A stretch of 64,000 bases of DNA, from contig CAVRTJ010000011.1 of the NCBI GenBank assembly GCA_963724125.1, positions 64,529 to 128,528 on the forward strand, given 5' to 3'. Position numbers and translations under genes: made by a program. Below the pieces are notes generated by a model. That model did not search any database, had not been told where the DNA came from, and saw only the letters and a list, made by a program, of their open reading frames with translations. This stretch comes from an uncultured Acidobacteriota bacterium. GTDB taxonomy: Bacteria > Acidobacteriota > UBA4820 > DSQY01. This document shows, in pieces, positions 22,777 to 60,540 of this stretch (positions are counted from its first letter, which is position 1; each line of letters opens with the position of its first letter).

Positions 22777-23883
22777 ATGCACGCGTTGGAGCCGGCACCC
22801 GGCATCTGTCGGGACCTTGCCGTGCTGAAGTATGCGCTGCGCCGCCTGCTTCTCATGGTGCCCACCCTCTTTCTGATCATGACGGTCGTCTTCGCGGTCG
22901 TGAAACTCGCGCCCGGAAATCCCTTTTCCTTCGCGCGTTACGGGGGGGGAAGGGCGGCTGCGCGCCTGAATCCGTCGGACTACGAAGTCCTTCTCCACAG
23001 GTACGGACTGGATAAGCCGTGGTACGTGCAATATGGCATCTGGTTGAAAAACCTCGCCACCGGATCCTTCGGCGAATCTTTCGGCCAGAAGCGTCCGGTG
23101 ATGAACGTGTTTCTGGGCCGGACCTTCGGGCCGGAGCCCGGTTCGGACGGACACACGGCGGCCGGGGAACCGATTTTCGAACGCTTCGTCCAGAGCCCCC
23201 TGGGAGCGACGTTTTTCCTGAATGGCATGGCGCTCCTTCTCGTTCTGGCCCTGGCCGTGCCCGCGGGGTTGCGCTCCGCCGCGAGGCCTGGGGGCAGGTT
23301 CGACAGGCTGAGCGGAGGTTTTATGTACGTGCTCTACGCCCTGCCTAATTTCTGGCTTGCCGTTCTGCTCATCATGCTCGTCGGCGTTCATTGGAAACTG
23401 CTGCCCTTCATCGGGATGCAGTCCGACGGGTATGCCGCCCTCACCCTGCTGGGCAAGGTCGCGGACCTGGTCCGGCACTCCGTTCTGCCCGCCCTGTGCC
23501 TGGCTTGCGGAGGTCTGGCCTACATCGCACGGTATACGAGGGGCGCCGTCCTCGACGTCCTCGGCCGTGATTTCATTCGAACCGCGCGGGCCAAAGGTCT
23601 GCGGGAGAGAACCGTGCTGGTGCGGCACGGTCTTAGAAACGCGCTGGTTCCGATGTTGACCCTGGCCGGCCTGCTCGTTCCCGCGCTCGTGTCGGGCAGC
23701 GTTATCATCGAGCCGATCTTCGCCTGGCCGGGGCTGGGGCAGCTCTATCTGCAATCGATCTACTCGAGAGACTACCCCGTGATACTGGCCGAATCCCTGC
23801 TGGGAGCGGTCGTGGTGCTGGTCAGCATGCTGGCCGTGGACCTCGCCTATGCCTGGGCGGACCCGAGGGTGAGGGTGGAGTGA
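22777..23883 (+). CDS. ABC transporter permease (DppB/OppB-like)
   Basis: ...FIRTARAKGLRERTVLVRHGLRNALVPMLTLAGL... carries the BPD_transp_1 EAA-like loop. Confidence 0.85.
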   Translation: MHALEPAPGICRDLAVLKYALRRLLLMVPTLFLIMTVVFAVVKLAPGNPFSFARYGGGRAAARLNPSDYEVLLHRYGLDKPWYVQYGIWLKNLATGSFGESFGQKRPVMNVFLGRTFGPEPGSDGHTAAGEPIFERFVQSPLGATFFLNGMALLLVLALAVPAGLRSAARPGGRFDRLSGGFMYVLYALPNFWLAVLLIMLVGVHWKLLPFIGMQSDGYAALTLLGKVADLVRHSVLPALCLACGGLAYIARYTRGAVLDVLGRDFIRTARAKGLRERTVLVRHGLRNALVPMLTLAGLLVPALVSGSVIIEPIFAWPGLGQLYLQSIYSRDYPVILAESLLGAVVVLVSMLAVDLAYAWADPRVRVE

Positions 23884-24046
23884 GATTTGGGATTAGGGAT
23901 TTGGGATTGCGGATTTAGAAACGGCTCGGGACGAGCCGTTGTGGCGGCCGGCGGGAGCCGGCCGGCGCCTTTACCTCCTGACCCTTCACCAGGCGGGCTT
24001 CTTCGAAGCTGTTTCTTCCGCCGACTTCACCGCGCCGTCAGGCGCA
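23884..24046. repeat. Mosaic intergenic repeat, copy A: heptad array, hairpin and GC palindromes, sitting inside the dpp operon between the two permease genes
   Basis: gatttgggattagggatttgggattgcggattt-AGAAACGGCTCGGGACGAGCCGTT-gtggcggccggcgggagccggccggcgcc...cttcttcgaagc.... Near-identical in reverse orientation at 60301-60480. Track ORFs 23887..24072 and 60297..60521 are translation artefacts of the repeat. Confidence 0.8.
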
Positions 24047-24084
24047 CAGGGTTCCGTGATCCCTTTGGCTAGAACGAGGCTTTC

Positions 24085-31745: not shown

Positions 31746-32085
31746 CAGGCTGCCTGGGCGTTCGGCAGGTCCCCTCTATCTCGATACCCTGATCACCCAC
31801 CGCTATCGGTATCGGGTCTCGGTATCGCCATCGAAGTCGATTTCCGGATCCCCCGTTCTCCGGCCGGCCTTTGTATGGCTTCTGCGAGGCCCTCTTTGAA
31901 AGGCCGGGAGAGTCCGGGCGATCTCGGGCGATGGGCGGTGGCAAGCCCGGGCTAGGGATGCGATCCCGATTCCGATCCCGATTTCAATTGCCGCAACGTA
32001 AATTCTGGGGGATCCGGTGTGCCGGTGCAGTTAGATTTTTCGGCAGTTTAGTCTTATAATCTAGGGCTTTAGGAGGCCCGATAGT

Positions 32086-34542
32086 ATGCCCTACGATCCG
32101 CACGCCGTCGAGACCCGCGTCCAGAAACTATGGGACGAATCGGGTGTGTCTGCAGTGGAAGAAGACCGGAACCGAAAGAAATTCTATTGCCTCGAGATGT
32201 TCATGTACCCTTCGGGCAGGATTCACATGGGCCACGTGCGCAACTACACCATCGGTGACGTGGTGGCGCGCTTCCGTCGGATGCGCGGGGAGAACGTCCT
32301 GCACCCCATGGGTTTCGACGCCTTCGGCCTGCCTGCCGAGAACGCCGCCATAAAGGGGAACGTCCACCCGAGCGAGTGGACGGAGGCCAACATCCGTGCA
32401 ATGAAGGGCCAGCTCAAGCGCATGGGCTTTCTCTACGACTGGAACCGGGAAGTCCGGACTTGCGAGCCCGAGTACTACCGTTGGAACCAGTGGTTCTTCC
32501 TGAATATGTTCGAAAAGGGCCTGGCCTACAAGGCGAAGCGGGCCGTGAACTGGTGCCCGGACTGCGCCACCGTTCTGGCCAACGAGCAGGTGGAGAATGG
32601 CACCTGCTGGCGGTGCCACAACGAGGTCGCCGTGAGGGAGATGGACCAGTGGTTCTTCCGCATCACGGACTATGCCCAGGAACTGCTGGACGACCTGGAC
32701 GGTCTCGCCGGCTGGCCGCCCGAGGTCGTGGCCATGCAGCGCAACTGGATCGGACGCTCTGAAGGCGCCCTCGTGGACTTCGCCGTGGACGGGGCGGACG
32801 AGAAAATCCGCGTCTTTACCACCCGCATCGATACCATCTATGGTGCCACCTACATGGTGCTCGCGCCCGACCACCCCGAAGTCGACGACCTCACGACCGA
32901 AGAACACAGGTCGGAGGTTGAAGCATTCAGGAAGAAGGTTGCCGCCTTGAGCACCCACGAACGGGCCACGTCGAGAGAGAAACTCGGCGTCTTCACCGGC
33001 GCGCACGCCGTCAACCCCTTTTCGGGCGAGAAGATCCCCGTGTACATCGCCAACTTCGTGCTCATGGACTACGGCACGGGGGCGGTCATGAGCGTTCCCG
33101 CGCACGATCAGCGCGACTTCGAATTCGCCCGGGCCTACGGCCTGCCCATCCGGGTGGTGGTCCGCAGCGAAGACACGGAGAACGGCGAACTGGCCGAGGC
33201 CGTCCCGGCCGATGGAACTGTGGTGGAAAGCGGTCCCTACTCGGGCATGCCGAATCGGGAAGCCATGGAGAAGATGGCGGCTTTCGCCGAGTCCGAAGGC
33301 TTCGGAAAAAGGACCGTGACCTACCGCATCAAGGACTGGGGCATCTCCCGGCAGCGCTACTGGGGGACACCCATTCCCATCGTTTACTGCGAGCGGTGCG
33401 GCACAGTGGCAGTGCCCGAATCGGATCTGCCGGTCGTCCTTCCCCGGGATGTCGTTTTCACCGGAAAAGGCGAGAGCCCACTCGCAAGGGACGAGGGCTT
33501 CGTCAATACGATGTGCCCCAAGTGCGGAAAAGCCGCGCGGCGCGAAACGGACACCATGGATACTTTCGTGGACTCGTCGTGGTACTTCCTCCGCTACTGC
33601 AATGCCCACAACGACGCAGCCGCGCTGGACAGGAAGGCCGTGGACTACTGGGCGCCCGTGGACTTCTACATCGGCGGCATAGAGCACGCAACCATGCACC
33701 TCATCTACTGCCGGTTCTTTACGATGGTCCTCAGGGACCTGGGCCTCGTGCCGTTCGACGAGCCCGTCAAGCGCCTCATGTGCCAGGGCATGGTCATCAA
33801 GGACGGCGCCAAGATGAGCAAGAGCCTCGGGAATCTCGTGGAACCGGACGAGATGATCGAGCGCTACGGCGCGGACGCCGTCCGTCTGAACATCGTCTTC
33901 CTGTCGCCGCCCTGGGACAGGCTCGACTGGGCCGAAAGCGGCGCAGAGGGCGCCTTCCGCTTCCTGCACCGCGTCTACGGGCTGGTGGAAGAACTAGCCG
34001 AAGACCTCAAGGGGCAATGCGCCGAGCCGGCGCCGGACGACGTCCACCCCCTGCGCCGCAAGACCCATCAGACCGTCGGGCGCGTCACGTCCGAACTCCA
34101 GGACCGCCTCAAGCTCAACACGGCCGTAGCCGCGCTCATGGAGCTGGTGAACGCCATCCAGGCGTTCCTGCCGTCCTATAACGGCACCCCCGAACAGCGC
34201 TTCATCCTCAAGGAGGCGGTGGAAAGCCTCGTTCAGATGCTTTCGCCCTTCAGCCCCCACGCCGCCGACGCCATGTGGCAGATGCTGGGGCGCGACGGAT
34301 TCCTGGTGGACGGCCCGTGGCCGGTCTTCGACCCGGCCATCGCCAAGGAGGACGAGGTCACGCTGGCCGTGCAGGTCAACGGCAAAGTCCGGGGGCAGAT
34401 CATCGTTCCGGCCGATGCCGACGCGCGGACCGTCCTCGACGCGGCCCGGGCGAACGGGAAAGTCCTCGCGCACCTCGAGGGCAAGACCGTGGTCAAGGAA
34501 CTCGTGGTACCCGGCCGGATCGTCAACTTTGTCGTGCGGTGA
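32086..34542 (+). CDS. leuS: Leucine--tRNA ligase
   Basis: 818 aa, intact. HIGH (HMGHVRNY) and KMSKS motifs present. Confidence 0.95.
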   Translation: MPYDPHAVETRVQKLWDESGVSAVEEDRNRKKFYCLEMFMYPSGRIHMGHVRNYTIGDVVARFRRMRGENVLHPMGFDAFGLPAENAAIKGNVHPSEWTEANIRAMKGQLKRMGFLYDWNREVRTCEPEYYRWNQWFFLNMFEKGLAYKAKRAVNWCPDCATVLANEQVENGTCWRCHNEVAVREMDQWFFRITDYAQELLDDLDGLAGWPPEVVAMQRNWIGRSEGALVDFAVDGADEKIRVFTTRIDTIYGATYMVLAPDHPEVDDLTTEEHRSEVEAFRKKVAALSTHERATSREKLGVFTGAHAVNPFSGEKIPVYIANFVLMDYGTGAVMSVPAHDQRDFEFARAYGLPIRVVVRSEDTENGELAEAVPADGTVVESGPYSGMPNREAMEKMAAFAESEGFGKRTVTYRIKDWGISRQRYWGTPIPIVYCERCGTVAVPESDLPVVLPRDVVFTGKGESPLARDEGFVNTMCPKCGKAARRETDTMDTFVDSSWYFLRYCNAHNDAAALDRKAVDYWAPVDFYIGGIEHATMHLIYCRFFTMVLRDLGLVPFDEPVKRLMCQGMVIKDGAKMSKSLGNLVEPDEMIERYGADAVRLNIVFLSPPWDRLDWAESGAEGAFRFLHRVYGLVEELAEDLKGQCAEPAPDDVHPLRRKTHQTVGRVTSELQDRLKLNTAVAALMELVNAIQAFLPSYNGTPEQRFILKEAVESLVQMLSPFSPHAADAMWQMLGRDGFLVDGPWPVFDPAIAKEDEVTLAVQVNGKVRGQIIVPADADARTVLDAARANGKVLAHLEGKTVVKELVVPGRIVNFVVR

Positions 34543-34573
34543 GTTAGAATGCAGACTTGCGGGTGAGGTGATC

Positions 34574-35116
34574 ATGAAAAAACGGGCCGGAAAAGCGCTC
34601 CTCTTTCTTGCCGCCTTCCTGTGTATCCTGGCGACCGCCGCTTGTGGCTACCGCCTCCTCGGATCGGCTGGCGCCCTGCCACCGACGGTCAAGACCATCG
34701 CCGTTATGCCCTTTGAGCGGGGGGTCCCGGTCCTCCAGCTAGACCAGCGCGTCACGGAGGCGGTGACCCGCGAGGTGGCCCAGCGTATGAGGGTGAAGGT
34801 CCAGTCGACCAAGGCCGGGGCGGACGCGGTCCTCAGCGGGGCCATCACCGCCTACAACGTGGCGCCCCTGTCCTACGACGCCGAGGGGAGGGCGAACCGC
34901 TACCAGGTCAACATGGCGGCCAGCGTGAAACTCGTCGACTCATCAGGCAAGGTCCTCTTTCAGTCGCCTTCCTACCGCTTCAGCCAGGTCTACGAGCGCT
35001 CGGGAAGCCCGTCCTCCTACATCAATCAAGAAGTCGTTGCCTACGACGTGGTGGCGCGAGATTTCGCCCGGGCCCTGGTGGCCTCCATCCTGGAGGGCGG
35101 GTCCGATGGCCGGTGA
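34574..35116 (+). CDS. lptE: LPS-assembly lipoprotein LptE
   Basis: MKKRAGKALLFLAAFLCILATAACGYRLLG... (lipobox). Conserved position immediately after leuS. Confidence 0.7.
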   Translation: MKKRAGKALLFLAAFLCILATAACGYRLLGSAGALPPTVKTIAVMPFERGVPVLQLDQRVTEAVTREVAQRMRVKVQSTKAGADAVLSGAITAYNVAPLSYDAEGRANRYQVNMAASVKLVDSSGKVLFQSPSYRFSQVYERSGSPSSYINQEVVAYDVVARDFARALVASILEGGSDGR

Positions 35117-36166
35117 CCAGACGCCGCGTCACGAGGAACACGCGCATCCAGGTTCCTGGGTGGTCTACAGCCTCACGCCCAAGGGCCTTCTCAAGGAAGA
35201 GTTCACGTCCGGGGTCAAGACCCACACGGACCTCATCTATTACGACGAAATCTGGGACACCTTCAGGGCCCGCCGCCTCCACCGCCGCGGGACCTGGCTG
35301 CTGGCCTGGGTGACGCTTCTTTCCGCCATCGTTCCCGGTCTCCCGAGTGTGTCCTGGGTCATGTTGCTTCCTGTCTGGGGGACGCTCACGGCCGGGTGGG
35401 TGCTTTTGGTCCTCGCCCTCCGGAACGTCGTGGTGACGCTCTACGATTTCGATGGACAGGATCTGGCCACGCTCCACGGCCCATCCAACAGCGCCTTTAT
35501 CGAGTTTCTGGGCGAATTAGACGTGCGGGTCCGGCACGCGAGATATCCGCTGCAGGGTACGCTTGAGGGTCTCGATCTGGGCTCGTGCAGTTGGAAGGGG
35601 TTCCGCCGGCGCTGGTCCTGTCGCTATCTCTACGACCGCGTCGTATTCGAAAGCGAGGGACCGTTCGGCTTTGAGGTCAGGGAATTCTACGGTCTGAACA
35701 CGCTCAACCCGCCGGTGCGCCTGGCCTGGAAGGTCCCCAAAATTGCGCTGGCGGGTTTCCTCTGCGGGGTCCTCTTCGCCGGTCCTCTTTCCTACATGGC
35801 GACGGGCGGGGGGGGCACGCCCTGGATCTGGCCTTCGGGGGACTCGCCGTCCTCGCGGCCGCGTGTGCGATCTGGCTCCTGCTTTTCCTGCGCGTCGCCG
35901 TGTCGGTGTCCACAGGGACGGGAACCGTCGAATCGGTTGCGCTGCCCTGGTGGCAGACCAGCCAGCGGCGGAGCATCCTCACGTGGTTCGCGCGCATCGT
36001 CCGCCTCGCCGACCGCACCGCCTTGATCGACTACGACGACTACTGGGAGTTTCATCGCGCCAAGCTCGAAATCCTCCGCGAAGAAAGTTTCCTCGACACC
36101 TGGCCCTACCGCTCCGCCCTCTCCCGCCTCAACAGCCAGGAGCGAGAGGACCTCGGGGGAGAATAA
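35106..36166 (+). CDS. Hypothetical membrane protein (frameshift in an 8-G homopolymer at about 35809)
   Basis: ATG overlaps the lptE stop (ATGGCCGGTGA). Two TM helices. Shifting frame after acgggcGGGGGGGGcacg continues ...LDLAFGGLAVLAAACAIWLLLFLRVAVS...DYDDYWEFHRAKLEILREE.... Confidence 0.5.
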
Positions 36167-36538
36167 AAAGACAATTTGGGAATTGGGATTTGGGATTGCG
36201 GATTTAGACTGCGGTTGGGGACGGGCCTTCGAGGGCCCGCTCAGCTTTACCCCTGACTTTCTCACCCCCCCGGTCTTCGAAGGCCGACCAGGGCACAAAA
36301 CACTAGACACTAGACACTGCGCCGGGGCGCAAGGGATTTGGGATTTAGAAACGGTTCGGGCCGGCCGTTTCGGCCGATTGCCATCGTCCGCTACGTTAGA
36401 ATGGTAGCTGGCAACCCTTCGAAGGCCCGCCTTCGCCGTCCCGTATCTCTTTTAGCCTTTAGAATTTAGCCCTTCGCCCTTGCCACCTTCAGAGGCCTAC
36501 CCCCGCCTCGATCACTCGGTCACTCGATCACCAGATCA
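36167..36538. repeat. Mosaic intergenic repeat array
   Basis: Modules in order: aaagacaatttgg, (GGGAATT/GGGATTT/GCGGATT) heptads, GGGCCTTCGAGGGCCC and GGTCTTCGAAGGCC palindromes, ACACTAGACACTAGACACTG, a second heptad/hairpin unit (aaacggttcgggccggccgtttcggccg), CCCTTCGAAGGCCCG, and CGATCACTCGGTCACTCGATCACCAGATCACT. Confidence 0.8.
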
Positions 36539-38224
36539 CTACAAGAGACACGTCGCACAGGCCTGGGCCACGGCCTTGAGGCCGACATCGAACGGGTTTG
36601 CCACGAATGGGTCGTCGGGCAGGATCCGGATCGGCTGTCCGCGCCGGGCCATGAGCTGTTTGAATGTCTCGAGGCTGCGCGCCTTGCGCATGGTGACGCC
36701 GGCCAGGAAGGACGCCGTGAGCAAGACCCGCGGGTCGAGCCCCGTCTCCGAGGCCGCGGACCTCAGCTCCTTCTGGTGTCCTAGGATGTAGCTGAGTTTC
36801 ACCTGGGCGTCGGCCAGGGGCAAGTCCCCGCACGGCACGCCGCCCGCTTCCAGCAGGCCCAGTCCCGTTTCGTACTCGGCGTCGTAGGATTCCAGCGGGA
36901 CCTGAGAGGTCACGGCCACGAAGATGCCCGACTTGACGGCTTCCGACAAAGCCGGCAGGACCGAACGGACCGAATCCGGGAGGATGTTGGCGTTGCCGCC
37001 GCCGTAGGCCGCGAAGATGGCGCCCCGCCCGCAGGCCTCGAACTGGGCGGCGTAGTCCCGGGTGGTGAAGAGGGGATTGGCGAAGACGGGTTTGACCGAG
37101 TGGTCGAAGCTCGTGTCCGCGTCTGCCACGCCGATCTTTTCGATCTCGCGGGCCAGCTTGGCCCAGTGCTCGAAGGACATGTTGGACGAATCCAGCGCGA
37201 ACAGGTCGTGCCGGTGCGGGTTTACAAAGAACGACGAGAGCGAGTCGTTCAGGTACTTCCACACGAAATCGCCCGTGGGTTTGAGTCCGCCCATCTCCTC
37301 GCCGTTTCGCTGGGACTCGATGGTGCCTCCCGTGCGTATGAGGTGGAGGTCCTCGAGACGCTGGTCCTCGTATGGCAGGAAGGCCCAGTCCTTCCTGAAC
37401 GACTCCACGCCCTCGGGCGTCGCGCTCGCAGCCACGCGCCCTTCGAAGGCGTCCATGTCCCACTTGCGGTACTTTGTCAGCCTGCCGGAAAAGACCCGCC
37501 GGCCGTTGTTGAAGACCGCGAAGAGGTGGGCAGGCCTGAGCCTGTTGATAAGGTACAGGGCGGTCTTGAGGTTCCCAAGGGCGTCGGAGATGGAAAAGTA
37601 GCCCTCAAGCGGGACCTGCGAGCCCGTCACCGCAACGTTGGCCTTGAGGTTCTTGAGGGCGTACCGGAGGTAGCACAGGCCCCACGCCATGGTGTCCGTG
37701 CCGTGGGTGATGAGGATGCCCGTGTCGTTGGCCACCCGGCCGTGTTTGAACAGAGCCCTGACGATATGCCATTCGAGCACGTCGAAGCGGCCGCTCGTGA
37801 GGATTTCCTCCTTGAAGAGAAAGCCCTCCGGGTCCAGCTCCTCCACGGTCATGTCGTCCGTGATGGTCTCCGAGATGAATGCGTCGCGGATGATGCGGGC
37901 GTCCTGGATGTCGGTCAGCATGATGACGGGCGTCTGGGGCAGGTGCCGGCGCACGTGGTACAGGAGCCCCATGCCCTCCCGTCCGCCGGGCGTCAGCTCC
38001 ACGTCGAGGACAACGAGGTCCGGGCGCTCGGACTTCAAGAGGTCCAGAGCGTCCTTTTCCGTGCGGGCGAAGCGGATGGCCCAGTCCGGCTGGGCCGCCG
38101 CGAAGTAATCGGCGATCTTCTTCTCGTAACCGTCCAGGTCGTCGTCGACGAAGTGGATCTTGAACGTCCGTCGCCATACCGCCTGTCCTCCTCCGCACGC
38201 CCCGTTGGGCGCCGGAAACAACAT
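36539..38224 (-). CDS. Response-regulator receiver domain fused to L-asparaginase (type II-like N- and C-terminal domains)
   Basis: REC: ...KIHFVDDDLDGYEKKIADYF...PDLVVLDVELTPGGREGMGLL...PVIMLTD.... Asparaginase: ...GILITHGTDTMAWGLCYLRYALKNLKANVAVTGSQVPL... and ...IFAAYGGGNANILPDSVRSVLPALSEAVKSGIFVAVTSQV.... The start taken is the ATG at 38224 with a weak RBS. Confidence 0.65.
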   Translation of the reverse strand: MLFPAPNGACGGGQAVWRRTFKIHFVDDDLDGYEKKIADYFAAAQPDWAIRFARTEKDALDLLKSERPDLVVLDVELTPGGREGMGLLYHVRRHLPQTPVIMLTDIQDARIIRDAFISETITDDMTVEELDPEGFLFKEEILTSGRFDVLEWHIVRALFKHGRVANDTGILITHGTDTMAWGLCYLRYALKNLKANVAVTGSQVPLEGYFSISDALGNLKTALYLINRLRPAHLFAVFNNGRRVFSGRLTKYRKWDMDAFEGRVAASATPEGVESFRKDWAFLPYEDQRLEDLHLIRTGGTIESQRNGEEMGGLKPTGDFVWKYLNDSLSSFFVNPHRHDLFALDSSNMSFEHWAKLAREIEKIGVADADTSFDHSVKPVFANPLFTTRDYAAQFEACGRGAIFAAYGGGNANILPDSVRSVLPALSEAVKSGIFVAVTSQVPLESYDAEYETGLGLLEAGGVPCGDLPLADAQVKLSYILGHQKELRSAASETGLDPRVLLTASFLAGVTMRKARSLETFKQLMARRGQPIRILPDDPFVANPFDVGLKAVAQACATCLL

Positions 38225-38422
38225 AGCACCAGCCCGCGCCGTTGGAAAGGCGGGGCGGGGTTGCACAGTGAGGCGGTGAGGCTGTGAGATGTGAGAAAAG
38301 ATGGGTTTAATCGGTGAGACGCTGAGAACGCAGAGAAAAGATTGCGAAAAAAGCCTCCTTGATTTGATCGAATGCCTTTGCGGGTTGGAAGGAAATTGAA
38401 CCACAGAGAACACAGAGGGCAC

Positions 38423-39340
38423 AGAGGAGGGGAGTAGATTGAGGATTTCGGTTTTGGACTTCGGCAGACGGGAGGCCCTCGAAGGCCTGCCCGCGACCCG
38501 ATCACTGGATTACTCGGTCACTTGATCACCTTCTAATAACAGGGAGGACGGGAGGAAGGGAGTAAAGGCGGATTCAACCGCGGAGGCGCGGAGGACGCAG
38601 AGAAAAGAAGGAGGAAGACGGATCTGGGGTGGAGAACGGCTCGGGACGAGCCGTTGTAGCGGCCGGCGGAAGCCGGCCGAATTCTTGCGCCGCTATTGTG
38701 CAGGCTCCGGCCGTTGCCCGTTCCCCGCGGGCCCTTGGCCCGCGGCGCCTCTTCGCGGGTCGCCATCCGGAAAGCAAGCTTTCCCGGCCGTCGCCCCGCG
38801 CGGGGCACCCCGCGTCGTTGACGCGGCGAGGAACGGGCAACTGGGGGGGTGCAAGGATGTCCCCTAAGAGCGTCCCCCACACACCCTATCGGAAGTGCCG
38901 ACGGGAGTGGACCATCCACTTTGTAGGCCTGCGCCGCCCACATCCTCGACGTACATAGTGAAGTGATCAAGACAAAACACTGCGAATGAACAGCCTGGTC
39001 CACATTTGGGACCGCGATGGCGCGGGTCCAAAATGGCGAAGTAGCGCGAGGGAACGGGGAAGTCCCCTCGCGCATGGGCCTTCCCGCGCAAGGGCAGGAA
39101 GAAGCAGCGTGGAAAGCGAGCATCGAGGAGGGCCGGTCGAGGCCCTCCTTGAAAGGCATCCCCGTGCGGCCTGCGTCGGAACGCAGCTTTCGATGCTCCG
39201 GGTCGAAAGACCTCTATCCGGGCCGGGTCTTCCAAGCAGTCGTCGGCACTGGATTGCTTCAAGCAGAGTGTAGGGTGGGCACTCATGCCTACCGCCACGG
39301 GCTTTGCATCTATGACAACAATGAAGGATAATACTTGAGT
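38423..39340. repeat. About 0.9-kb non-coding, highly structured GC-rich region containing repeat modules (candidate structured RNA or repeat cluster)
   Basis: No credible ORF (track ORFs here are repeat-derived or Arg/Pro-rich). Contains GATCACTGG/TACTCGGTCACTTGATCACC, GCAGAGAAAAGA repeats and the AACGGCTCGGGACGAGCCGTT hairpin. A long-range inverted pair CCGTTGCCCGTTCC(38711)...GGAACGGGCAACTGG(38831) encloses the CCGCGGGCC-ctt-GGCCCGCGG, CCGGAAAGC-aa-GCTTTCCCGG and CCCCGCGCGGGG hairpins. The segment CGACGGGAGTGGACCATCCACTTTGTAGGCCTGCGCCGCCCACATCCTCGACGTACA is also found at 46960-47020. Confidence 0.6.
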
Positions 39341-39360
39341 ATTTGACTTCGGGGGACCCA

Positions 39361-41586: not shown

Positions 41587-41613
41587 GCAGAGTGAAATGT
41601 GAGGTGAAAGACG

Positions 41614-41844
41614 ATGACGAAAGAGAAGTGGAAATACATCCTGATCGGGTTCCTGGCGGCGCTGGCGCTGGTCGTCTCGCTGGGCGCGGTTGGGGCCAGT
41701 GCGAAGGGCAAGTACAGCATTGCGTGCACGCGAACCACCGCATTCGTCCTCAACACGCAAACGGGCGAGGTGAAGGTCGCGTGGGCCGAAGCGAACGGCT
41801 CTCAGTTGAACAAGCCCTTCACCGAAATGAAAGCGCGGCCCTAG
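41614..41844 (+). CDS. Small secreted/membrane hypothetical protein (76 aa)
   Basis: MTKEKWKYILIGFLAALALVVSLGAVGASA... signal-like N-terminus. No homology recognised. Confidence 0.35.
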   Translation: MTKEKWKYILIGFLAALALVVSLGAVGASAKGKYSIACTRTTAFVLNTQTGEVKVAWAEANGSQLNKPFTEMKARP

Positions 41845-41904
41845 CAGGCGGGTTAGTAAGGAAGAGCGAAAAGGAGAAAGGTGTCGGCCGACGGGGATCG
41901 GCTG

Positions 41905-41975
41905 CTGTAACGGTTCGTCCCAGGCCGCTTCTAAATCCCAAATCCCAATTCCAAAATCGCAAATCTTCCCCCCTC
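41905..41975. repeat. Mosaic intergenic repeat (reverse orientation heptad module)
   Basis: gtaacggttcgtcccaggccgcttcTAAATCCCAAATCCCAATTCCAAAATCGCAAATCttcccccc is the reverse complement of the heptad-plus-hairpin module. Confidence 0.7.
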
Positions 41976-46725: not shown

Positions 46726-46929
46726 GACGAGGATAAGGTACCCGGAACCGCGCTCTGGTGCAAGCCGCCGCGCGGAAGGGCTAAGAGCTAAGGCCAAAGG
46801 GCTAAAGGCAGGACGGTAGGCGGGGTGCCTTTGTATCGGCCGATTCCTATCAACCCAAGGTCCAGATGAACACGGCCACGCCGGCCCGACGTTTCGCGCA
46901 CCGCGGCCTGGTGCCATCACCTCGTGACG

Positions 46930-47240
46930 CAGCCCCCACCCCTTGAAAGAAGCATCGACGGGAGCGGACCATCCGCTTTGTCGGCCTGTGCCGCCCTCAT
47001 CCTCGACGTACAAAAGTACGACTGCGGTGTGAGCGGCTTGCCCTTCGCGCGCCTGGCCCACTCGCGTCGAGATGCGGCCTTTCGGTCGATCTTCGATCAG
47101 CCGAAAGCCCTCTTGAGGGAAGAACCTTCGAAGGTCAACCACCGACCAGATCCCTTGGTCACTCGATCACTCGATCACTGCGCCAACAGGCGCACAAGAC
47201 ACTAAACCCTGGACACTAAACACTGCCTGCCCGCAGGCAG
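46930..47240. repeat. Mosaic intergenic repeat array (divergent chrA / hypothetical-gene intergenic region)
   Basis: CGACGGGAGCGGACCATCCGCTTTGTCGGCCTGTGCCGCCCTCATCCTCGACGTACA (also at 38897-38955), CCTTCGAAGGTCAACC, GGTCACTCGATCACTCGATCACTG, and ACACTAAACCCTGGACACTAAACACTG. Confidence 0.75.
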
Positions 47241-49989: not shown

Positions 49990-50162
49990 TGTCGCAAGCA
50001 ATCGCTCGGTGCGCCTTCGAAGGCCCGGTCCCTACCGTCATCTAAATCCGCAATCCCAAATCCCAATTCCCAAATTCCAGCCCTCGCCGCGTCACTGTCC
50101 AATCCCGAGTGCTTTTCCGCGCCTCACTCTCATTTCCTAATCGCCCGATCACTGGTTACTAT
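49990..50162. repeat. Mosaic intergenic repeat
   Basis: GCGCCTTCGAAGGCCCGG, TCTAAATCCGCAATCCCAAATCCCAATTCCCAAATTCC (reverse heptads), CCCGATCACTGGTTACTATTCACTC. Confidence 0.75.
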
Positions 50163-51398
50163 TCACTCATACCGCAGGGCATCGATGGGGTTTAGGTCGG
50201 CGGCGCGCAGGGCGGGGTAGAGGCCGGAGAGGACGCCGACGGCGATGGAGACGCCGAAGGCGAGCACGACCGAGAATACCGTGACGACGGTGGGCCAGCC
50301 GGCGGAGAGGGCGATGATCTTGGCAATGACCACGCCCATGACGACGCCCGCCGACCCGCCGATGAGGCTGATGGTGGCGGACTCGCTGACGAACTGGAGC
50401 GCGACGTCCCGGCGCTTGGCGCCGACGGCAAGGCGGATTCCGATCTCGCGCGTGCGCTCGAGGACGGATGCGAGCATGATGTTCATGATGCCGATGCCGC
50501 CCACCAGGAGGGAGATGCCGGCGATACAGCCCATGACGATGCTGAACAGACGCTGGGTTTTCCGGCTCTGCTCGAGCAGGGCCTCGGGCACCGTGATGTC
50601 GAAATCTTTCGCGCCGCCGTGGAGGCGGTTCACCAGCGTGCCGATCACTGCGGCGGCGGCCTGGGGACGGACCCCGTTCTTGAGCCGCACAACGATCTCG
50701 TCCACGGGCGATTTGAGGGGGTCCCGGTCGAACTTCCGCATCGCCGTCGTGACGGGGATGTCTACGTCCCGGCCTATGGAACTGATCTGCACGCCCTGGA
50801 AGGAGCCGCCGCCCGCTTCGGGAGCGGCGAGCACGCCGACCACCGTCAGCCAGACGTCGTCGACCTTGAGGTCCTTTCCGACCGCGGGGCCGTAGCCGAA
50901 GAGGTCCCTCCGGACATCCGGACCGATGACGCAGACCTGCGCGTTGTCCTTTTCGTCCAGCTCGTCGAGAAAGCGTCCCTCGGAAAGCTCCAGGCCGAAA
51001 AGCTCCGGCTGGCGCCAGGAGACGCCGAAAACGCTGGCGTCCGTGCTCGTCCCGGCGGCCATGACGCCGTAGGTGTGCACGCGGACGATCGGTGTGACGA
51101 AGGCGACGCCCGGAACGGCCTCCTTCACGGCCTCCCCGTCCCGCGGCGACACGCCCGGCGACTTTTTGCGGATCTCCTGGAGCTCGTCCTTTTTCAGGTC
51201 CAGGTTCCGGATGAGAACGTTCCTGAGACCCAGCCGCTCGATCATGGCCAGCGCCTGTCGCTCGGCGCCCGCGCCTATGGCGAGCATGGCGATCACGGCT
51301 CCGACGCCGAAGAGCATGCCAAGCATGGACAGTGCGGAGCGGAGTTTGTGCGAGAAAAGGTTCCGGAAGGCACTGACGAGGGCGTCTCTCGGGTTCAT
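50163..51398 (-). CDS. ABC-type efflux permease, FtsX/MacB-like with no fused ATPase (DevC-like)
   Basis: 411 aa. N-terminal TM, large periplasmic domain and three C-terminal TM helices (...IGIMNIMLASVLERTREIGIRLAVGAKRRDV...). Confidence 0.8.
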   Translation of the reverse strand: MNPRDALVSAFRNLFSHKLRSALSMLGMLFGVGAVIAMLAIGAGAERQALAMIERLGLRNVLIRNLDLKKDELQEIRKKSPGVSPRDGEAVKEAVPGVAFVTPIVRVHTYGVMAAGTSTDASVFGVSWRQPELFGLELSEGRFLDELDEKDNAQVCVIGPDVRRDLFGYGPAVGKDLKVDDVWLTVVGVLAAPEAGGGSFQGVQISSIGRDVDIPVTTAMRKFDRDPLKSPVDEIVVRLKNGVRPQAAAAVIGTLVNRLHGGAKDFDITVPEALLEQSRKTQRLFSIVMGCIAGISLLVGGIGIMNIMLASVLERTREIGIRLAVGAKRRDVALQFVSESATISLIGGSAGVVMGVVIAKIIALSAGWPTVVTVFSVVLAFGVSIAVGVLSGLYPALRAADLNPIDALRYE

Positions 51399-57639: not shown

Positions 57640-57777
57640 ATGCCCGATTGGGCGGATTAATGAAAGGGAAGGACAATTTGGAAGTCGGGATTGGGATTTC
57701 GGATTTAAAGGACCGCCGCGACCGCGCACTCTCGAAGCCGCGCACTTCGAAGGCCTACTCCCGCACTCGATCACTGT
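57640..57777. repeat. Mosaic intergenic repeat
   Basis: aaggacaatttgg-(AAGTCGG/GATTGGG/ATTTCGG)ATTTAAA...CTCTCGAAGCCGCGCACTTCGAAGGCC...CACTCGATCACTG has the same module order as 36167-36538. Confidence 0.75.
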
Positions 57778-58764
57778 CTAAATCAGATAGGCGATCGCCA
57801 GCCCCACCTGGGCGGCCATCATCATGGCGTACATGTGGGTCCAGGCGGGGTGGTTTCGGCTCGAGGCGAGGTCTTCGGGCCTCCTCAGCAGGAGAATCAC
57901 GGTGTAGGCGCCCCACAGGACCAGGATCGCGCCGAGGGCGTCCAGGAGGACGGGATTGCCGGTGAGCAGGCGGCCACCGGAGGGAAGCCGGATCAGCGTC
58001 CCCAGCGGCAGCATCAGCCAGGGCAGGACGAAGAAGGGCGCGATCATCCAGGCGGCGGTTCTTGGTCCGTAGACCACGGGTAGCGTTCGGCACCCGTCGA
58101 GCGCGTCGCCCCGTATGTCGGAAAAGTCCTTGGTGGACGTGGCGCCGAGCAGGAAGAGGAAGAAGACGGCGCCGAGATACCACGGCTCGAACATGGCCGT
58201 GGAGGCCACCATGGACCAGCCGGCGACCTTGAGCAGTTCGCCGCGGGCCGTAGCGACGGTCGCGTTGGCCCATATCCCGAAGCGCTTGGTGCGCCCCAGG
58301 AAGGGGGCCGAGTAGATGAAGGTGCAGAGGAGCCCCGCCAGGAACACCCAGAAGCAGGCATGGGCGTACCAGGGTGCGAAGGTCCTCGACGCGAAAGCGT
58401 TGTCGTAGGGAGGCGGCACGATCCACCACGTCGGTGCCAGGGAGACGGCGTACAGAACGAACGAGACGCGGACGGCGGACCGGACACCGATCTGTCCCGT
58501 GCAGAGCGGGCGGCCCGGTTTATTGATGCGATCTATGGAGAGGTCGAATACCTGGTTGATCATGTTGGACGCCGCATTCATCAGCGACGCGCAGACGGAA
58601 CCCGCAAGGAGTGTCCAGAAGAGTCCGGGGGTCGGGCCGGGGTGGAGATTGTGCGCGGAACCGAAGGCGCAGGCGGAGCCGGCGAGAATCCCCAGCAACG
58701 GAGGCACGAGCGTAAAGGGGCGGGCAAGCGCGATCCAGGACCTCATGCTCATTTCATCAGCCAC
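57778..58764 (-). CDS. UbiA-family polyprenyltransferase
   Basis: Nine-TM protein with NQVFDLSIDRIN (NxxxDxxxD) and DFSDIRGD second Asp-rich motif. Confidence 0.8.
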   Translation of the reverse strand: MADEMSMRSWIALARPFTLVPPLLGILAGSACAFGSAHNLHPGPTPGLFWTLLAGSVCASLMNAASNMINQVFDLSIDRINKPGRPLCTGQIGVRSAVRVSFVLYAVSLAPTWWIVPPPYDNAFASRTFAPWYAHACFWVFLAGLLCTFIYSAPFLGRTKRFGIWANATVATARGELLKVAGWSMVASTAMFEPWYLGAVFFLFLLGATSTKDFSDIRGDALDGCRTLPVVYGPRTAAWMIAPFFVLPWLMLPLGTLIRLPSGGRLLTGNPVLLDALGAILVLWGAYTVILLLRRPEDLASSRNHPAWTHMYAMMMAAQVGLAIAYLI

Positions 58765-60300: not shown

Positions 60301-60540
60301 TCAGGCTCTGCGCCTGACGGCGCGGTGAAGTCGGCGGGAGAAAGAGCTTCGAAGAAGCCCGCCTGGTGAAGGGTTAAGAGGTGAAGGCGCCGGCCGGCAT
60401 CGGCCGGCCGCTGCAACGGCCCATCCCGAGCCGTTTCTAAATCCCAAATCCCAATTCCCAAATCCCAAATTCCCCCCGTCTGCCGCTTCATAAATCCCAA
60501 ATCCCGAATCCCAATTCCCAAATCCCCAATAACCGCTTTA
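60301..60540. repeat. Mosaic intergenic repeat, copy B (inverted, near-identical to 23884-24046) plus an extra heptad array
   Basis: gcgcctgacggcgcggtgaagtcggcgggagaaagagcttcgaagaagcccgcctggtgaagggtt...ccatcccgagccgtttCTAAATCCCAAATCCCAATTCCCAAATCCCAAATTCC...ATAAATCCCAAATCCCGAATCCCAATTCCCAAATCC. Confidence 0.8.

What the first reader, a model, noticed from the sequence alone, without database searches (positions are those of the whole stretch)
36167..36538. Modular mosaic intergenic repeat family occupying at least 8 intergenic sites in 64 kb
The same ordered modules recur at 23884-24046, 36167-36538, 38423-39000, 41905-41975, 46930-47240, 49990-50162, 57640-57777 and 60301-60540:
1. Lead-in aagacaatttgg.
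2. 3-6 tandem heptads GGGATTT/GGGAATT/GCGGATT.
3. TAGAAACGGCTCGGGACGAGCCGTT-type perfect hairpin.
4. GC palindromes of the form GGCCTTCGAAGGCC(C)G.
5. ACACTAGACACTAGACACTG-like tandems.
6. GATCACTCG tandems abutting the neighbouring gene end.

Elements occur in both orientations, inside an operon (between the dpp permease genes), and at divergent and convergent junctions. This resembles E. coli BIME/REP mosaics or MITE-like elements but with a distinctive heptad component. If related repeats are found elsewhere in the same genome it would be a major genome-wide repeat, potentially affecting mRNA stability, termination or rearrangement.
Basis: seen in the sequence. Interest (0 to 1): 0.7.

Follow-up and report, generated by a model that had tools for sequence, protein, structure and literature searches.

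The report
Mosaic heptad-array repeats between genes
The repeats are real: a fast-changing family of small non-coding palindromic DNA elements in an acidobacterial chromosome, whose seven-base arrays match the ends of a little-known gene cassette (the "intervening sequence" element of ribosomal RNA genes), which suggests where such repeats come from.

Summary
Observation confirmed. No site carries all six modules.

The organism is not Desulfobacterota. Window 30131-38253 is syntenic, at 87-91% nucleotide identity, with a Thermoanaerobaculia (Acidobacteriota) MAG.

In related strains whose flanking genes are 93-100% identical, sites 2, 3, 4 and 5 differ:
- a 190-nt indel at the GGCCTTCGAAGGCC palindrome;
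- swapped modules;
- different heptad units;
- a 3.4-kb gene-carrying segment missing between two elements.

In other Acidobacteriota the heptad array is the outer end of a complete palindromic element: array, arm, palindrome, arm', inverted array. Chloroflexota and Planctomycetota have the same arrays around a short loop.

In one Pirellulaceae contig the same inverted arrays enclose a PF05635/TIGR02436 four-helix-bundle gene. This is the Avd-like ORF of 23S rRNA intervening sequences. All 13 such genes sampled from six phyla are flanked by inverted period-7 arrays, and controls are not.

Best reading: the window copies are ORF-less, mostly one-ended, MITE-like relatives of that cassette, piled into BIME-like mosaics and reshuffled by recombination and slippage. 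How they move is unknown. No four-helix-bundle gene was found in the window or in any Acidobacteriota locus.

The parts
23882..23919 (+). Site 1 heptad array (GAGATTT GGGATTA GGGATTT GGGATTG CGGATTT AGA). It starts inside the stop codon of the upstream permease gene.
23920..23940 (+). Site 1 hairpin S1, AACGGCTCG-GGA-CGAGCCGTT
23941..23969 (+). Site 1 hairpin S2, GTGG-CGGCCGGC-GGGA-GCCGGCCG (REP-like)
   Evidence: (D14)
23970..24049 (+). Site 1 tail. It holds the palindrome-like GGGCTTCTTCGAAGC (23995-24009) and hairpin C, GCGCC-GTCA-GGCGC (24032-24045). It is the end of the 165-nt block shared with site 8.
   Evidence: (I1)
36174..36208 (+). Site 2 heptad array, ATTTGGGAATTGGGATTTGGGATTGCGGATTTAGA. 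It is identical in L004 and L027.
36209..36240 (+). Site 2 arm plus palindrome P1, GGGCCTTCGAGGGCCC. This is the left junction of the 190-nt indel.
36241..36430 (+). Segment present in the window but absent from L004 and L027, bounded by a 15-nt direct repeat of the palindrome. It contains P2 (36272-36285), ACACTAG x3 (36300-36319), hairpin C (36319-36330), two heptads (36333-36349), a diverged S1 (36350-36370) and P3 (36415-36429).
36451..36498 (+). Site 2 second heptad-like array (TTTAGCC type) and palindrome-like ACCTTCAGAGGCCT
   Evidence: (D3)
36510..36540 (+). Site 2 octad array, GATCACTC x4, running into the stop codon of the minus-strand gene 36539-38224. L004 and L027 have 3 units.
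38255..38429 (+). Site 3 left extension, absent from L027 and L004. It holds (GTGAGNN)n at 38268-38295, a copy of the 54-nt block D13 (38288-38341) and (CACAGAGNN)3 at 38401-38429.
   Evidence: (D13)
38437..38487 (+). Site 3 degenerate heptad array (38437-38464), arm and palindrome GGCCCTCGAAGGCC (38474-38487)
38500..38530 (+). Site 3 octad array. It is the left boundary of the 3.4-kb segment (38537-41911) missing in strain L124.
38540..38679 (+). Site 3 (GGGAGGA)n, second D13 copy, perfect S1 (38635-38655) and GTAG-tagged S2 (38656-38679)
   Evidence: (D13, D14)
38876..38955 (+). Site 3 copy of the 80-nt 'type C' repeat shared with site 5
   Evidence: (D9)
41883..41930 (-). Site 4 diverged S2 (41883-41905) and S1 (41909-41930). 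Strain L124 has an arm-plus-palindrome module here instead.
   Evidence: (D6)
41930..41965 (-). Site 4 heptad array (AAATCCC on the + strand). Strains L121, L122 and L123 carry a different, 4-unit array.
46778..46840 (+). Site 5 heptad array of another unit (GGGCTAA type) plus arm, just upstream of chrA. Strain L122 has a GGATTTT/GGGATTT array, S1 and S2 at this position.
46933..47012 (+). Site 5 copy of the 'type C' repeat
   Evidence: (D9)
47124..47240 (+). Site 5 palindrome (47124-47136), octads (47149-47180), hairpin C (47180-47193), ACACTAA heptads (47198-47225) and hairpin CCTGCC-CGC-AGGCAG (47226-47240)
50011..50078 (-). Site 6 palindrome (50011-50027), arm and heptad array (50041-50078), the inverted copy of 36173-36245
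   Evidence: (I2)
50147..50169 (+). Site 6 degenerate octads overlapping the stop codon (50163-50165) of the minus-strand MacB/FtsX-type gene
57676..57709 (+). Site 7 heptad array, preceded by the aggaca lead-in
57722..57776 (+). Site 7 16-nt direct repeat, palindrome (57744-57755) and 1.5 octads abutting the stop codon of the minus-strand UbiA-family gene (57778)
60306..60435 (-). Site 8 inverted copy of the site 1 block: hairpin C (60310-60323), palindrome-like (60346-60360), S2 (60386-60414) and S1 (60415-60435)
   Evidence: (I1, I4)
60436..60527 (-). Site 8 two heptad arrays in tandem (60436-60473 and 60490-60527), each with five GGG runs on the minus strand

Best explanation
**What it is.** The eight sites are copies of a dispersed, rapidly turning-over family of non-coding repeats in a Thermoanaerobaculia (Acidobacteriota) chromosome.

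Each site is a mosaic of short modules:
- heptad array H, (GGGATTT)n ending in TAGA;
- GC hairpins S1, S2 and C;
- palindrome P, GGCCTTCGAAGGCC;
- octad array O, (GATCACTC)n;
- further 7-9-nt arrays.

**The heptad array as an element end.** H is the outer end of a palindromic element. Its complete form is H, arm, P, arm', inverted H. That form exists in other Acidobacteriota. Chloroflexota and Planctomycetota have it with only a short loop.

The same architecture, inverted arrays of 7-nt units, encloses genes for the Avd-like four-helix-bundle protein. This protein is PF05635/TIGR02436, the ORF of 23S rRNA intervening sequences. I therefore read the window copies as ORF-less, mostly one-ended, MITE-like relatives of that cassette. 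They have accumulated next to REP-like hairpins into BIME-like mosaics.

**Shown.**
- The copies are gained, lost and exchanged between strains, with junctions in P or in the arm next to H.
- Arrays change unit number and unit sequence.
- The elements bound a 3.4-kb gene presence/absence difference.

**Inferred.**
- Spread is by insertion at palindrome centres or hairpin tips, plus ectopic recombination between copies and replication slippage.
- A four-helix-bundle protein encoded elsewhere in the genome may act on the arrays.
- Complete copies transcribed within operons would form long duplexes cut by RNase III, as intervening sequences are.
- The elements are mainly selfish or neutral rather than regulatory.
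For: **Reality and intergenic restriction:**

**Taxon:** L004 (CAZDOY010000008.1, Thermoanaerobaculia) is syntenic at 87-91% identity.

**Turnover between strains.**
- 190-nt indel flanked by a 15-nt repeat of P.
- Site 3 restructured.
- Site 4 has array and module replacement in strains whose LemA protein is 100% identical.
- Site 5 has a different heptad unit at the same position.
- Window 38537-41911 is replaced by 71 nt in L124.
- Unit-number changes.

**Complete palindromic copies.**
- L013 5338-5451 folds at -49.8 kcal/mol, z -4.5.
- L014 has two copies.
- Inverted pairs occur in 12 of the 26 pattern-hit loci.

**Link to the cassette.**
- L011 has inverted GGGATTT arrays 461 nt apart, end to end, enclosing a 129-aa ORF. 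The ORF matches PF05635 at E 2.4e-19 and TIGR02436 at E 2.9e-25.
- 30 of 120 homologues end in peptides such as KSQIPNPKS or QIRNPKS, which are translated AAATCCC arrays.
- 13 of 13 PF05635 genes have flank inverted-repeat scores of 19-34, against at most 15 for 34 control genes (Mann-Whitney p 6e-8). They come from Planctomycetota, Cyanobacteriota, Chloroflexota, Bacteroidota, Spirochaetota and Bacillota. The best period is 7 in every case.
- In 50 kb of a Chlorohelix plasmid, the only period-7 arrays with at least 4 copies flank the PF05635 gene.

**Literature.** The Coxiella intervening sequence has tandem GACAGAT heptamers before the S23p ORF and a terminal stem cut by RNase III (PMC4990558). 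PF05635 resembles Avd (PMC10053308).
Against: - No PF05635 ORF is in the window, nor in Acidobacteriota loci L003, L004, L013, L014 or L027 (hmmsearch). The source genome could not be scanned.
- Only 1 of 26 pattern-hit loci carries the ORF.
- L011 was retrieved by the array pattern itself, so the array identity there is by construction.
- The association could run the other way: four-helix-bundle genes may insert into pre-existing arrays.
- There are no consistent target-site duplications. Only 2 of 13 complete copies show a 5-6-nt flanking repeat.
- No transposase is known for the cassette, so no mobility mechanism is established.
- Most window copies are one-ended and fold weakly: z -2.7, -1.3 and -0.1.
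- Modules S1, S2, P and O have no demonstrated link to the cassette.
Confidence: 0.58

Rival explanations
1. REP/BIME system. The GC hairpins, especially S2 (GTAG-CGGCCGGC-GGRA-GCCGGCCG), are repetitive extragenic palindromes mobilised by a REP-associated tyrosine transposase (RAYT). The heptads and octads are merely linker motifs of the mosaic.
For: - S2 carries the GTAG tag at 38656 and in L013 and L014.
- The hairpins are GC-rich and 20-30 nt long.
- The organisation is mosaic and there are no target duplications.
- GTAG-tagged palindromes are a known superfamily (PMC3733652, listed).
Against: - GTAG is present in only 3 of 7 S2 copies. The others read GTGG, GCAG or ACAG.
- S2 is not arranged in alternating inverted pairs.
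- None of the 50 window ORFs scanned is a Y1 transposase.
- Heptad arrays occur without S2 in most sites and in other phyla.
Confidence: 0.14
2. The modules are arrays of cis-acting signals kept by selection. Candidates are mRNA stabilisers or terminators, G-quadruplexes, or binding arrays for a protein, for example GGA motifs for CsrA or a heptamer-binding cold-shock or S1-type protein.
For: - Copies sit at gene ends and inside an operon.
- Every heptad contains GGA.
- Two arrays at site 8 have five GGG runs.
- Published proposals exist for G4 formation (PMC4692102) and for translational regulation by heptamer arrays (PMC4679880).
- Octads and ACACTAG units carry a stop codon per unit, and three genes end in or at the octads.
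Against: - Orientation relative to transcription is mixed. Sites 1, 2 and 8 read GGGAUUU; sites 4, 6 and 7 read AAAUCCC.
- Only 2 of 9 arrays have at least four G3 runs.
- Terminator-like sites are not in excess: 6 found against 6.0 expected.
- Hairpins decay without compensation, as in the site 4 S1.
- Presence, unit sequence and neighbouring modules differ between strains with identical flanking proteins.
Confidence: 0.12
3. The arrays are plain microsatellites made in place by polymerase slippage (the explanation offered for the excess of heptanucleotide repeats in bacteria), with no mobility and no relation to any gene cassette.
For: - Unit-number differences between relatives: octads 4 against 3, CGATYC array +1 unit, (GGGCGAT)n 33-nt indel.
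- Literature as summarised in PMC4679880 and PMC4692102.
Against: - The same non-periodic order of variant units (GGGAATT GGGATTT GGGATTG CGGATTT AGA) recurs at unlinked sites together with up to 165 nt of adjoining unique sequence.
- It also recurs in other phyla.
- Arrays come as inverted pairs.
- Arrays flank PF05635 genes specifically.
Confidence: 0.08
4. Assembly artefact: collapsed or chimeric duplication.
For: Related short-read contigs end at these sites (L121-L124). Repeats do break assemblies.
Against: Copies are 78-96% identical, not identical, and each has unique flanks. The same sites appear in independent assemblies from different samples.
Confidence: 0.01

Closest known systems
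23S rRNA intervening sequences carrying the S23p / four-helix-bundle ORF (PF05635, TIGR02436; Leptospira, Coxiella)
   Same: - Terminal inverted repeats form a long stem.
- Tandem heptamers lie in the stem region: GACAGAT x3 in Coxiella (PMC4990558).
- Distribution is sporadic and suggests horizontal transfer.
- The same array type (GGGATTT) flanks a PF05635 gene in L011.
   Different: - The window copies have no ORF.
- They lie between protein-coding genes, not in rRNA helices.
- They are mostly one-ended.
- They are fused to other modules (P, O, S1, S2).
- RNase III processing is untested.
G-rich heptameric repeats GGGAATC (Xanthomonas) and GGGGA(T/C)T (Nostoc), Rehm et al. 2015 (PMC4692102); cyanobacterial STRR heptamers; TAACTGA repeats of Beggiatoaceae (PMC4679880); GGGACCG x4 elements of Geobacter metallireducens (PMC2700814)
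   Same: - Short intergenic tandem arrays of 7-nt units.
- Often found as nearby inverted pairs.
- Length and sequence vary between close relatives.
- Phylogenetic distribution is patchy.
- Function is unknown.
   Different: - Those reports treat the arrays as isolated simple-sequence repeats or regulator sites.
- Here the array is one end of a larger element with defined inner modules.
- Here the array is tied to a gene cassette.
- The Planktothrix PF05635 gene in L118 is flanked by the very GGGGATT unit studied in Nostoc.
E. coli BIMEs / REP sequences and REPINs
   Same: - Extragenic mosaics of GC-rich palindromes with conserved linker motifs.
- Both orientations occur.
- Intra-operon copies occur.
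- There are no target duplications.
- S2 sometimes carries a GTAG tag.
   Different: - REPs here are not arranged in regular alternating orientation.
- No RAYT was found.
- The dominant components are tandem 7-8-nt arrays, which BIMEs lack.
Bacterial MITEs (Correia, RUP, Nezha, Rickettsia palindromic elements)
   Same: - Small and non-coding, in many copies.
- Complete copies have terminal inverted repeats and fold as long hairpins.
- In-frame insertion into genes occurs, as with Rickettsia elements: ValRS in L002 and L026.
   Different: - The inverted ends are themselves tandem arrays.
- There is no consistent target-site duplication.
- The only ORF found between such ends is a four-helix-bundle protein, not a transposase.

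Membership tests
MITE | Small (<~500 bp) non-coding element present in many copies | tested here: met
   Nine heptad arrays at 7 of the 8 sites in 64 kb. Further copies are in L004, L013, L014, L027 and L121-L124.
MITE | Terminal inverted repeats | tested here: inconclusive
   Met in complete copies of other genomes (L013, L014, L019, L022 and others). The window copies are mostly one-ended.
MITE | Target-site duplication of fixed length | tested here: not met
   Only 2 of 13 complete copies have a 5-6-nt flanking repeat. There is none at the 165-nt pair of sites 1 and 8.
MITE | Parent insertion sequence with the same ends and a transposase | tested here: not met
   The only ORF seen between such ends is PF05635. 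No transposase was found among the 50 window ORFs scanned.
REP/BIME | 20-40-nt imperfect palindrome with a GTAG (or CGTC) tag | tested here: inconclusive
   S2 is a 24-29-nt GC palindrome. GTAG is present in 3 of 7 copies.
REP/BIME | REPs in alternating orientation separated by conserved linkers | tested here: not met
   S2 occurs singly at each site.
REP/BIME | Cognate RAYT gene flanked by REPs | not testable with these tools
   None among the 50 window ORFs scanned. The source genome is not available: the LeuRS look-up failed, and the look-up of the identical LemA (P0121) did not return its 195-kb contig.
Intervening-sequence-type four-helix-bundle cassette | PF05635/TIGR02436 ORF | tested here: not met
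   hmmsearch of all six-frame ORFs of at least 50 aa in the window found none.
Intervening-sequence-type four-helix-bundle cassette | Inverted terminal repeats built from tandem heptamers | tested here: met
   The arrays at sites 1, 2 and 6 and the first array at site 8 match the 24-nt pattern that retrieved the L011 cassette. The architecture held in 13 of 13 cassettes.
Intervening-sequence-type four-helix-bundle cassette | Excision of the stem by RNase III at the RNA level | not testable with these tools
   Needs RNA end-mapping. Only the complete copy in L013 folds strongly.
Intervening-sequence-type four-helix-bundle cassette | Location in 23S rRNA helices 9, 25 or 45 | tested here: not met
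   There is no rRNA in the window. All copies lie between protein-coding genes.
Heptameric simple-sequence repeats (Mrazek 2007; Rehm 2015) | At least 2-3 tandem 7-nt units, intergenic, over-represented | tested here: met
Heptameric simple-sequence repeats (Mrazek 2007; Rehm 2015) | At least four G3 runs (G-quadruplex potential) | tested here: not met
   Only the two site 8 arrays qualify. Seven of nine arrays have 2-3 runs.
Any Rfam family | Score at or above the gathering threshold | tested here: not met
   No matches over the whole window. In the one stretch also scanned at E<=1 (36100-39400), only sub-threshold hits were found.

The most novel reading that the evidence does not exclude
Inverted arrays of tandem heptamers are the ends of one widespread, unrecognised class of mobile cassette. 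This would take in the cyanobacterial STRR repeats, the Xanthomonas and Nostoc GGGNATC repeats, and the elements seen here. The cassette's only gene is the Avd-like four-helix-bundle protein, the same element known as the 23S rRNA intervening sequence. ORF-less miniature copies of it have colonised intergenic regions, operons and even coding sequences in Acidobacteriota, Chloroflexota and Planctomycetota. They would move by a transposase-independent mechanism that targets hairpin tips or palindrome centres.
Probability: 0.35. Interest if true: 0.85.

Novelty: new variant of a known kind. Interest (0 to 1): 0.64.

Why it matters
Three questions have stayed open for decades. Why are heptanucleotide tandem repeats over-represented in many bacterial genomes? 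Where do 23S rRNA intervening sequences come from? What do the very abundant stand-alone four-helix-bundle (Avd-like) proteins do?

The data here tie all three to one architecture, so the questions become testable:
- Scan genomes for co-occurrence of the arrays and the gene.
- Map empty against filled sites.
- Test whether the protein binds the arrays.
- Test whether RNase III cuts the stems.

For this lineage specifically, the elements mark hot spots of strain-level rearrangement. One is a 3.4-kb gene presence/absence difference. They also explain why short-read assemblies break at these sites. On the practical side, the window's taxonomic label is corrected to Thermoanaerobaculia.

Tried and rejected
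- **Rfam.** No family reaches threshold over the window. At E<=1 over 36100-39400 there were only two sub-threshold hits: BjrC80 at 33 bits against a gathering score of 80, and PhotoRC-I.
- **tRNA/tmRNA.** None.
- **Intrinsic terminators.** 6 found against 6.0 expected.
- **Conserved RNA structure for the window copies.** z -2.7, -1.3 and -0.1. The S1 hairpin at site 4 is broken without compensating changes.
- **G-quadruplex.** Only 2 of 9 arrays have at least four G3 runs.
- **Target-site duplications.** Inconsistent.
- **Transposase, RAYT or four-helix-bundle gene in the window.** None among 50 ORFs scanned with Pfam, and none by a family HMM over all six-frame ORFs.
- **Viral contigs.** The array pattern gave 0 hits and the four-helix-bundle protein gave no relatives. 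No sign of a phage vector.
- **Source genome.** An exact look-up of the window's LeuRS found no record.
- **Desulfobacterota origin.** Rejected by synteny with a Thermoanaerobaculia MAG.
- **HIP-like methylation palindrome for P.** Rejected, because P is almost confined to the intergenic mosaics.
- **Literature.** Seven searches found heptamer-repeat reports and the Coxiella intervening-sequence paper. None links heptamer arrays generally to PF05635 cassettes. The library is incomplete, so this is not proof of absence.
Full report
**1.

I read all eight stretches and tested each module against dinucleotide shuffles of the window.

| Module | Matches | Expected |
|---|---|---|
| GGGATTT-type heptad pairs | 23 | 1.8 |
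| Palindrome CCTTCGAAGGCC | 15 | 0.7 |
| GATCACTC octad pairs | 11 | 1.7 |
| ACACTAG tandems | 4 | 0.5 |
| Hairpin AACGGCTCGGGACGAGCCGTT | 5 strand-hits at 3 places | 0.01 |

All heptad, octad and hairpin hits fall in the eight intergenic sites between 23.8 and 60.5 kb. None lies in the tightly packed first 23 kb.

Repeat finding adds longer shared blocks:
- a 165-nt inverted pair, 23885-24049 against 60306-60470, 90% identical;
- a 73-nt inverted pair, 36173-36245 against 50004-50076;
- a 94-nt pair, 41878-41971 against 60384-60477;
- an 80-nt pair, 38876-38955 against 46933-47012.

Exact module coordinates were verified by string search.

There are two recurrent arrangements:
- heptads, hairpin S1, hairpin S2, tail, hairpin C (sites 1 and 8; partial at 3 and 4);
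- heptads, arm, palindrome P, spacer, octads (sites 2, 3 and 7; partial at 5 and 6).

The 'lead-in' is seen at two sites only. ACACTAG tandems are also seen at two sites only.

Sites 3 and 5 are larger than stated. Site 3 begins near 38255, because the neighbouring gene most likely starts at ATG 38224. Site 5 begins at 46727 and contains another heptad array of unit GGGCTAA.

**2. Context and organism**

The flanking genes are ordinary chromosomal genes:
- two peptide-permease subunits on either side of site 1;
- leuS and lptE;
- an asparaginase/response-regulator fusion;
- a BNR/sortilin protein;
- LemA, ChrA, a radical-SAM protein and a MacB-type permease;
- a cytochrome c, a UbiA-family protein and an LptD fusion.

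None of the 50 ORFs scanned is a transposase.

A scan of one genome per species for the 24-nt array core GGGAWTTGGGATTKSGGATTTAGA returned 26 loci. One of them, L004, comes from an uncultured Thermoanaerobaculia MAG. It is collinear with window 30131-38253 at 87-91% nucleotide identity. The window is therefore acidobacterial, not Desulfobacterota.

**3. The family extends beyond the window and turns over quickly**

Orthologous sites were recovered from L004, from metagenome contig L027 (95% protein identity), and from contigs L121-L124, which encode a LemA identical to the window's. Coding blocks align at 93-99% without large gaps. Every comparable mosaic site differs.

- **Site 2.** The window has 190 nt (36241-36430) that are absent from L004 and L027. 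The segment is bounded by a 15-nt direct repeat of the palindrome, and the octad array has 4 units against 3.
- **Site 3.** L004 and L027 have an intact heptad array next to the gene. The window has about 270 nt of extra modules and a degenerate array.
- **Site 4.** Three strains carry a different 4-unit array. Strain L124 has an arm-plus-palindrome module where the window has S2-S1, with the junction in the arm next to the array.
- **Site 5.** At the same position upstream of chrA, L122 has a GGATTTT/GGGATTT array with S1 and S2. The window has a GGGCTAA array with a similar arm.
- **A gene-level difference.** In L124, window 38537-41911 is replaced by 71 nt. That segment carries the BNR/sortilin gene and a small ORF. 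The breakpoints lie directly after the site 3 octads and in the site 4 arm.

Related short-read contigs also end at these sites, as expected for dispersed repeats.

This rules out an assembly artefact. It shows gain, loss and exchange of modules on a strain time-scale.

More distant orthologous loci (68-72% protein identity; L028-L030) have few or none of these modules. They do carry other short arrays at similar places.

**4. What the heptad array is**

In three contigs of another Acidobacteriota MAG (L003, L013, L014) the array appears as the outer end of a complete imperfect palindrome: array, TAGA, arm, GGCCTTCGAAGGCC, arm', TCTA, inverted array. Some copies have S2 inside. L014 also has the palindrome, octads and hairpin C in the same order as the window.

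The complete copy in L013 folds into one long hairpin at -49.8 kcal/mol, z -4.5.

In Chloroflexia and Planctomycetota hits, the same arrays face each other across a 12-100-nt loop. Twelve of the 26 loci have such inverted pairs. The outer boundary ATTTGGGAATTGGG / CCCAATTCCCAAAT is shared between Acidobacteriota and Chloroflexota. The order of variant units is not simply periodic. This argues for common descent of the ends rather than independent slippage.

The window copies keep the same polarity, with ATTTGGG outside and GGATTTAGA inside. They are mostly one-ended and fold weakly: z -2.7 for site 1, -1.3 for site 2 and -0.1 for site 7.

Target-site duplications are not consistent.

**5. The link to a gene cassette**

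In L011 (Pirellulaceae) the two inverted GGGATTT arrays span 461 nt end to end and enclose a 129-aa ORF. The ORF matches Pfam PF05635 '23S rRNA-intervening sequence protein' at E 2.4e-19 and NCBIfam TIGR02436 'four helix bundle protein' at E 2.9e-25. Pfam PF05635 resembles the Avd accessory protein of diversity-generating retroelements (PMC10053308).

Of its 120 best homologues, 30 end in peptides such as KSQIPNPKS, QIRNPKS or SEIRNPKSEI. These are translations of AAATCCC-type arrays that overlap the 3' end of the gene.

I then sampled such genes without reference to the array:
- four from large contigs of Planctomycetota;
- eight from plasmids of Nostoc, Pseudanabaena, Gloeocapsa, Planktothrix, Chlorohelix (Chloroflexota), Bernardetia (Bacteroidota), Treponema and Monoglobus.

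With L011 that makes thirteen genes. All thirteen are flanked by arrays of short tandem units in inverted orientation. The units include CGGATTT, ATGATTT, GTAGAAA, GTCGGAG, TAGATTT, GGGGATT/TACGATT and GGAAAGT/TCCGCTC. Many share a GATTT core.

The numbers are as follows:
- The inverted-repeat score between flanks is 19-34 for the thirteen genes and at most 15 for 34 control genes. Separation is complete (Mann-Whitney p 6e-8).
- The best period is 7 on both sides in every case.

In a 50-kb stretch of the Chlorohelix plasmid, the only period-7 arrays with four or more units are the two pairs flanking the gene.

The genes sit between members of conserved operons:
- fabH | fabD;
- cysD | cysN;
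- hsdS | hsdR;
- drmD | pglX;
- DUF1156 | Swt1-HEPN.

This is the behaviour of an inserted element, and it parallels site 1 of the window.

The literature held here describes the Coxiella 23S rRNA intervening sequence. It has a terminal 28-bp stem cut by RNase III and three tandem GACAGAT heptamers ahead of the S23p ORF. Its origin is unexplained (PMC4990558).

Separate papers describe unexplained heptamer arrays:
- GGGAATC in Xanthomonas and GGGGATT in Nostoc, often as inverted pairs (PMC4692102);
- TAACTGA in Beggiatoaceae, Cyanobacteria and Bacteroidetes (PMC4679880);
- GGGACCG x4 in Geobacter metallireducens (PMC2700814).

In seven searches I found no paper that connects the arrays in general to the four-helix-bundle cassette. 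The library is incomplete.

**6. Most likely mechanism**

*Shown:*
- a dispersed, intergenic, orientation-independent family;
- strain-level gain, loss and module exchange, with junctions in the palindrome or the arm;
- unit-number and unit-sequence change in arrays;
- complete palindromic copies elsewhere;
- the same architecture around PF05635 genes in six phyla.

*Inferred:*
- The window copies are ORF-less, decayed or one-ended relatives of that cassette.
- They spread or are rebuilt by insertion at palindrome centres or hairpin tips. This parallels intervening sequences, which sit at the tips of rRNA helices.
- Ectopic recombination between copies and slippage also reshape them.
- They are mainly selfish.
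- Complete copies inside transcripts would be RNase III substrates.

*Not shown:*
- any protein acting on them;
- any four-helix-bundle gene in this genome;
- any link between the cassette and modules S1, S2, P or O.

S2 looks like a GTAG-tagged REP in 3 of 7 copies. A separate REP/RAYT system contributing to the mosaic is therefore a live rival.

Regulatory readings (terminator, G-quadruplex, CsrA or cold-shock binding arrays) fit poorly, for four reasons:
- Orientation relative to transcription is mixed.
- The hairpins are unselected.
- There is no terminator excess.
- The sites are polymorphic between strains.

**7. Verdict**

The BIME/MITE-like reading is broadly right, but the taxon and the 'distinctive heptad' claim are wrong.

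As a repeat family this is a new variant of a known kind. The wider connection, heptamer arrays as the ends of the intervening-sequence / four-helix-bundle cassette, rests on 13 of 13 sampled loci plus one locus with the identical array. If a genome-wide survey bears it out, it would explain several old puzzles at once.

Noticed in passing
L002 4589-4660; L026 4205-4276: In two Chloroflexota MAGs a 72-nt ORF-less heptad-array hairpin sits in frame inside an intact 920-aa valyl-tRNA synthetase gene. It adds 24 residues (ISNLGIGISDLDGIEENPQSEIPI...) between KLWNATRFV and DRWILSR.
   Followed up: partly
L107 1501-1893; L110 1501-1890; L011 3691-4080; L113, L117, L118, L119: Four-helix-bundle (PF05635) genes are inserted between genes of conserved operons: plsX-fabH|fabD-fabG, cysD|cysN, DUF1156|Swt1-HEPN in two phyla, drmD|pglX, and hsdS|hsdR. 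The Monoglobus copy (hsdS|hsdR) is a pseudogene with stop codons.
   Followed up: partly
window 38537-41911: This 3.4-kb segment is replaced by 71 nt in the related contig L124, whose LemA is identical. It holds the BNR/sortilin gene 39343-41586, the small ORF 41608-41844 and part of sites 3 and 4. The breakpoints are inside the repeat elements.
   Followed up: yes
window 38711-38842: A GC-rich multibranch fold closed by GTTGCCCGTTCC/GGAACGGGCAAC (-94.8 kcal/mol, z -2.9). It is conserved in L027 and has no Rfam match. It could be an unrelated structured RNA upstream of the BNR gene.
   Followed up: partly
window 39038-39192 (-): A full-length but sub-threshold Rfam match to the Bradyrhizobiaceae sRNA BjrC80 (33 bits against a gathering score of 80, E 9e-4).
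   Followed up: no
window 31803-31833 and 31960-31985: Upstream of leuS there is an inverted pair of different short arrays, (TATCGG)n facing (CCGATY)n, around a small palindrome. Compared with L004 there is a 33-nt indel of (GGGCGAT)n and a one-unit difference. The same architecture therefore occurs with other unit sequences.
   Followed up: partly
window 36510-36541, 50147-50169, 57763-57780: On the minus strand each octad unit (AGTGATCG) contains TGA, so three units close all three reading frames. The stop codons of three minus-strand genes lie in or directly next to these arrays. ACACTAG units likewise carry TAG on the plus strand.
   Followed up: no
window 38876-38955 and 46933-47012: An 80-nt repeat (81% identical) contains the small hairpin AGYGGA-CCA-TCCRCT. 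It is present at sites 3 and 5 and in L027, but it is not obviously part of the heptad or palindrome elements.
   Followed up: no
window 35037-36166: Two overlapping ORFs in different frames (35037-36026 and 35675-36166) follow lptE, where holA is expected. Neither has a Pfam match. This may be a frameshift or a divergent gene.
   Followed up: no
window 38224-38422: The long ORF 36539-38422 probably starts at ATG 38224. Homologues in L027 and L004 start MARTF(N/K)IHFVDD, and the window appears to have a 1-nt difference at that start codon.
   Followed up: partly
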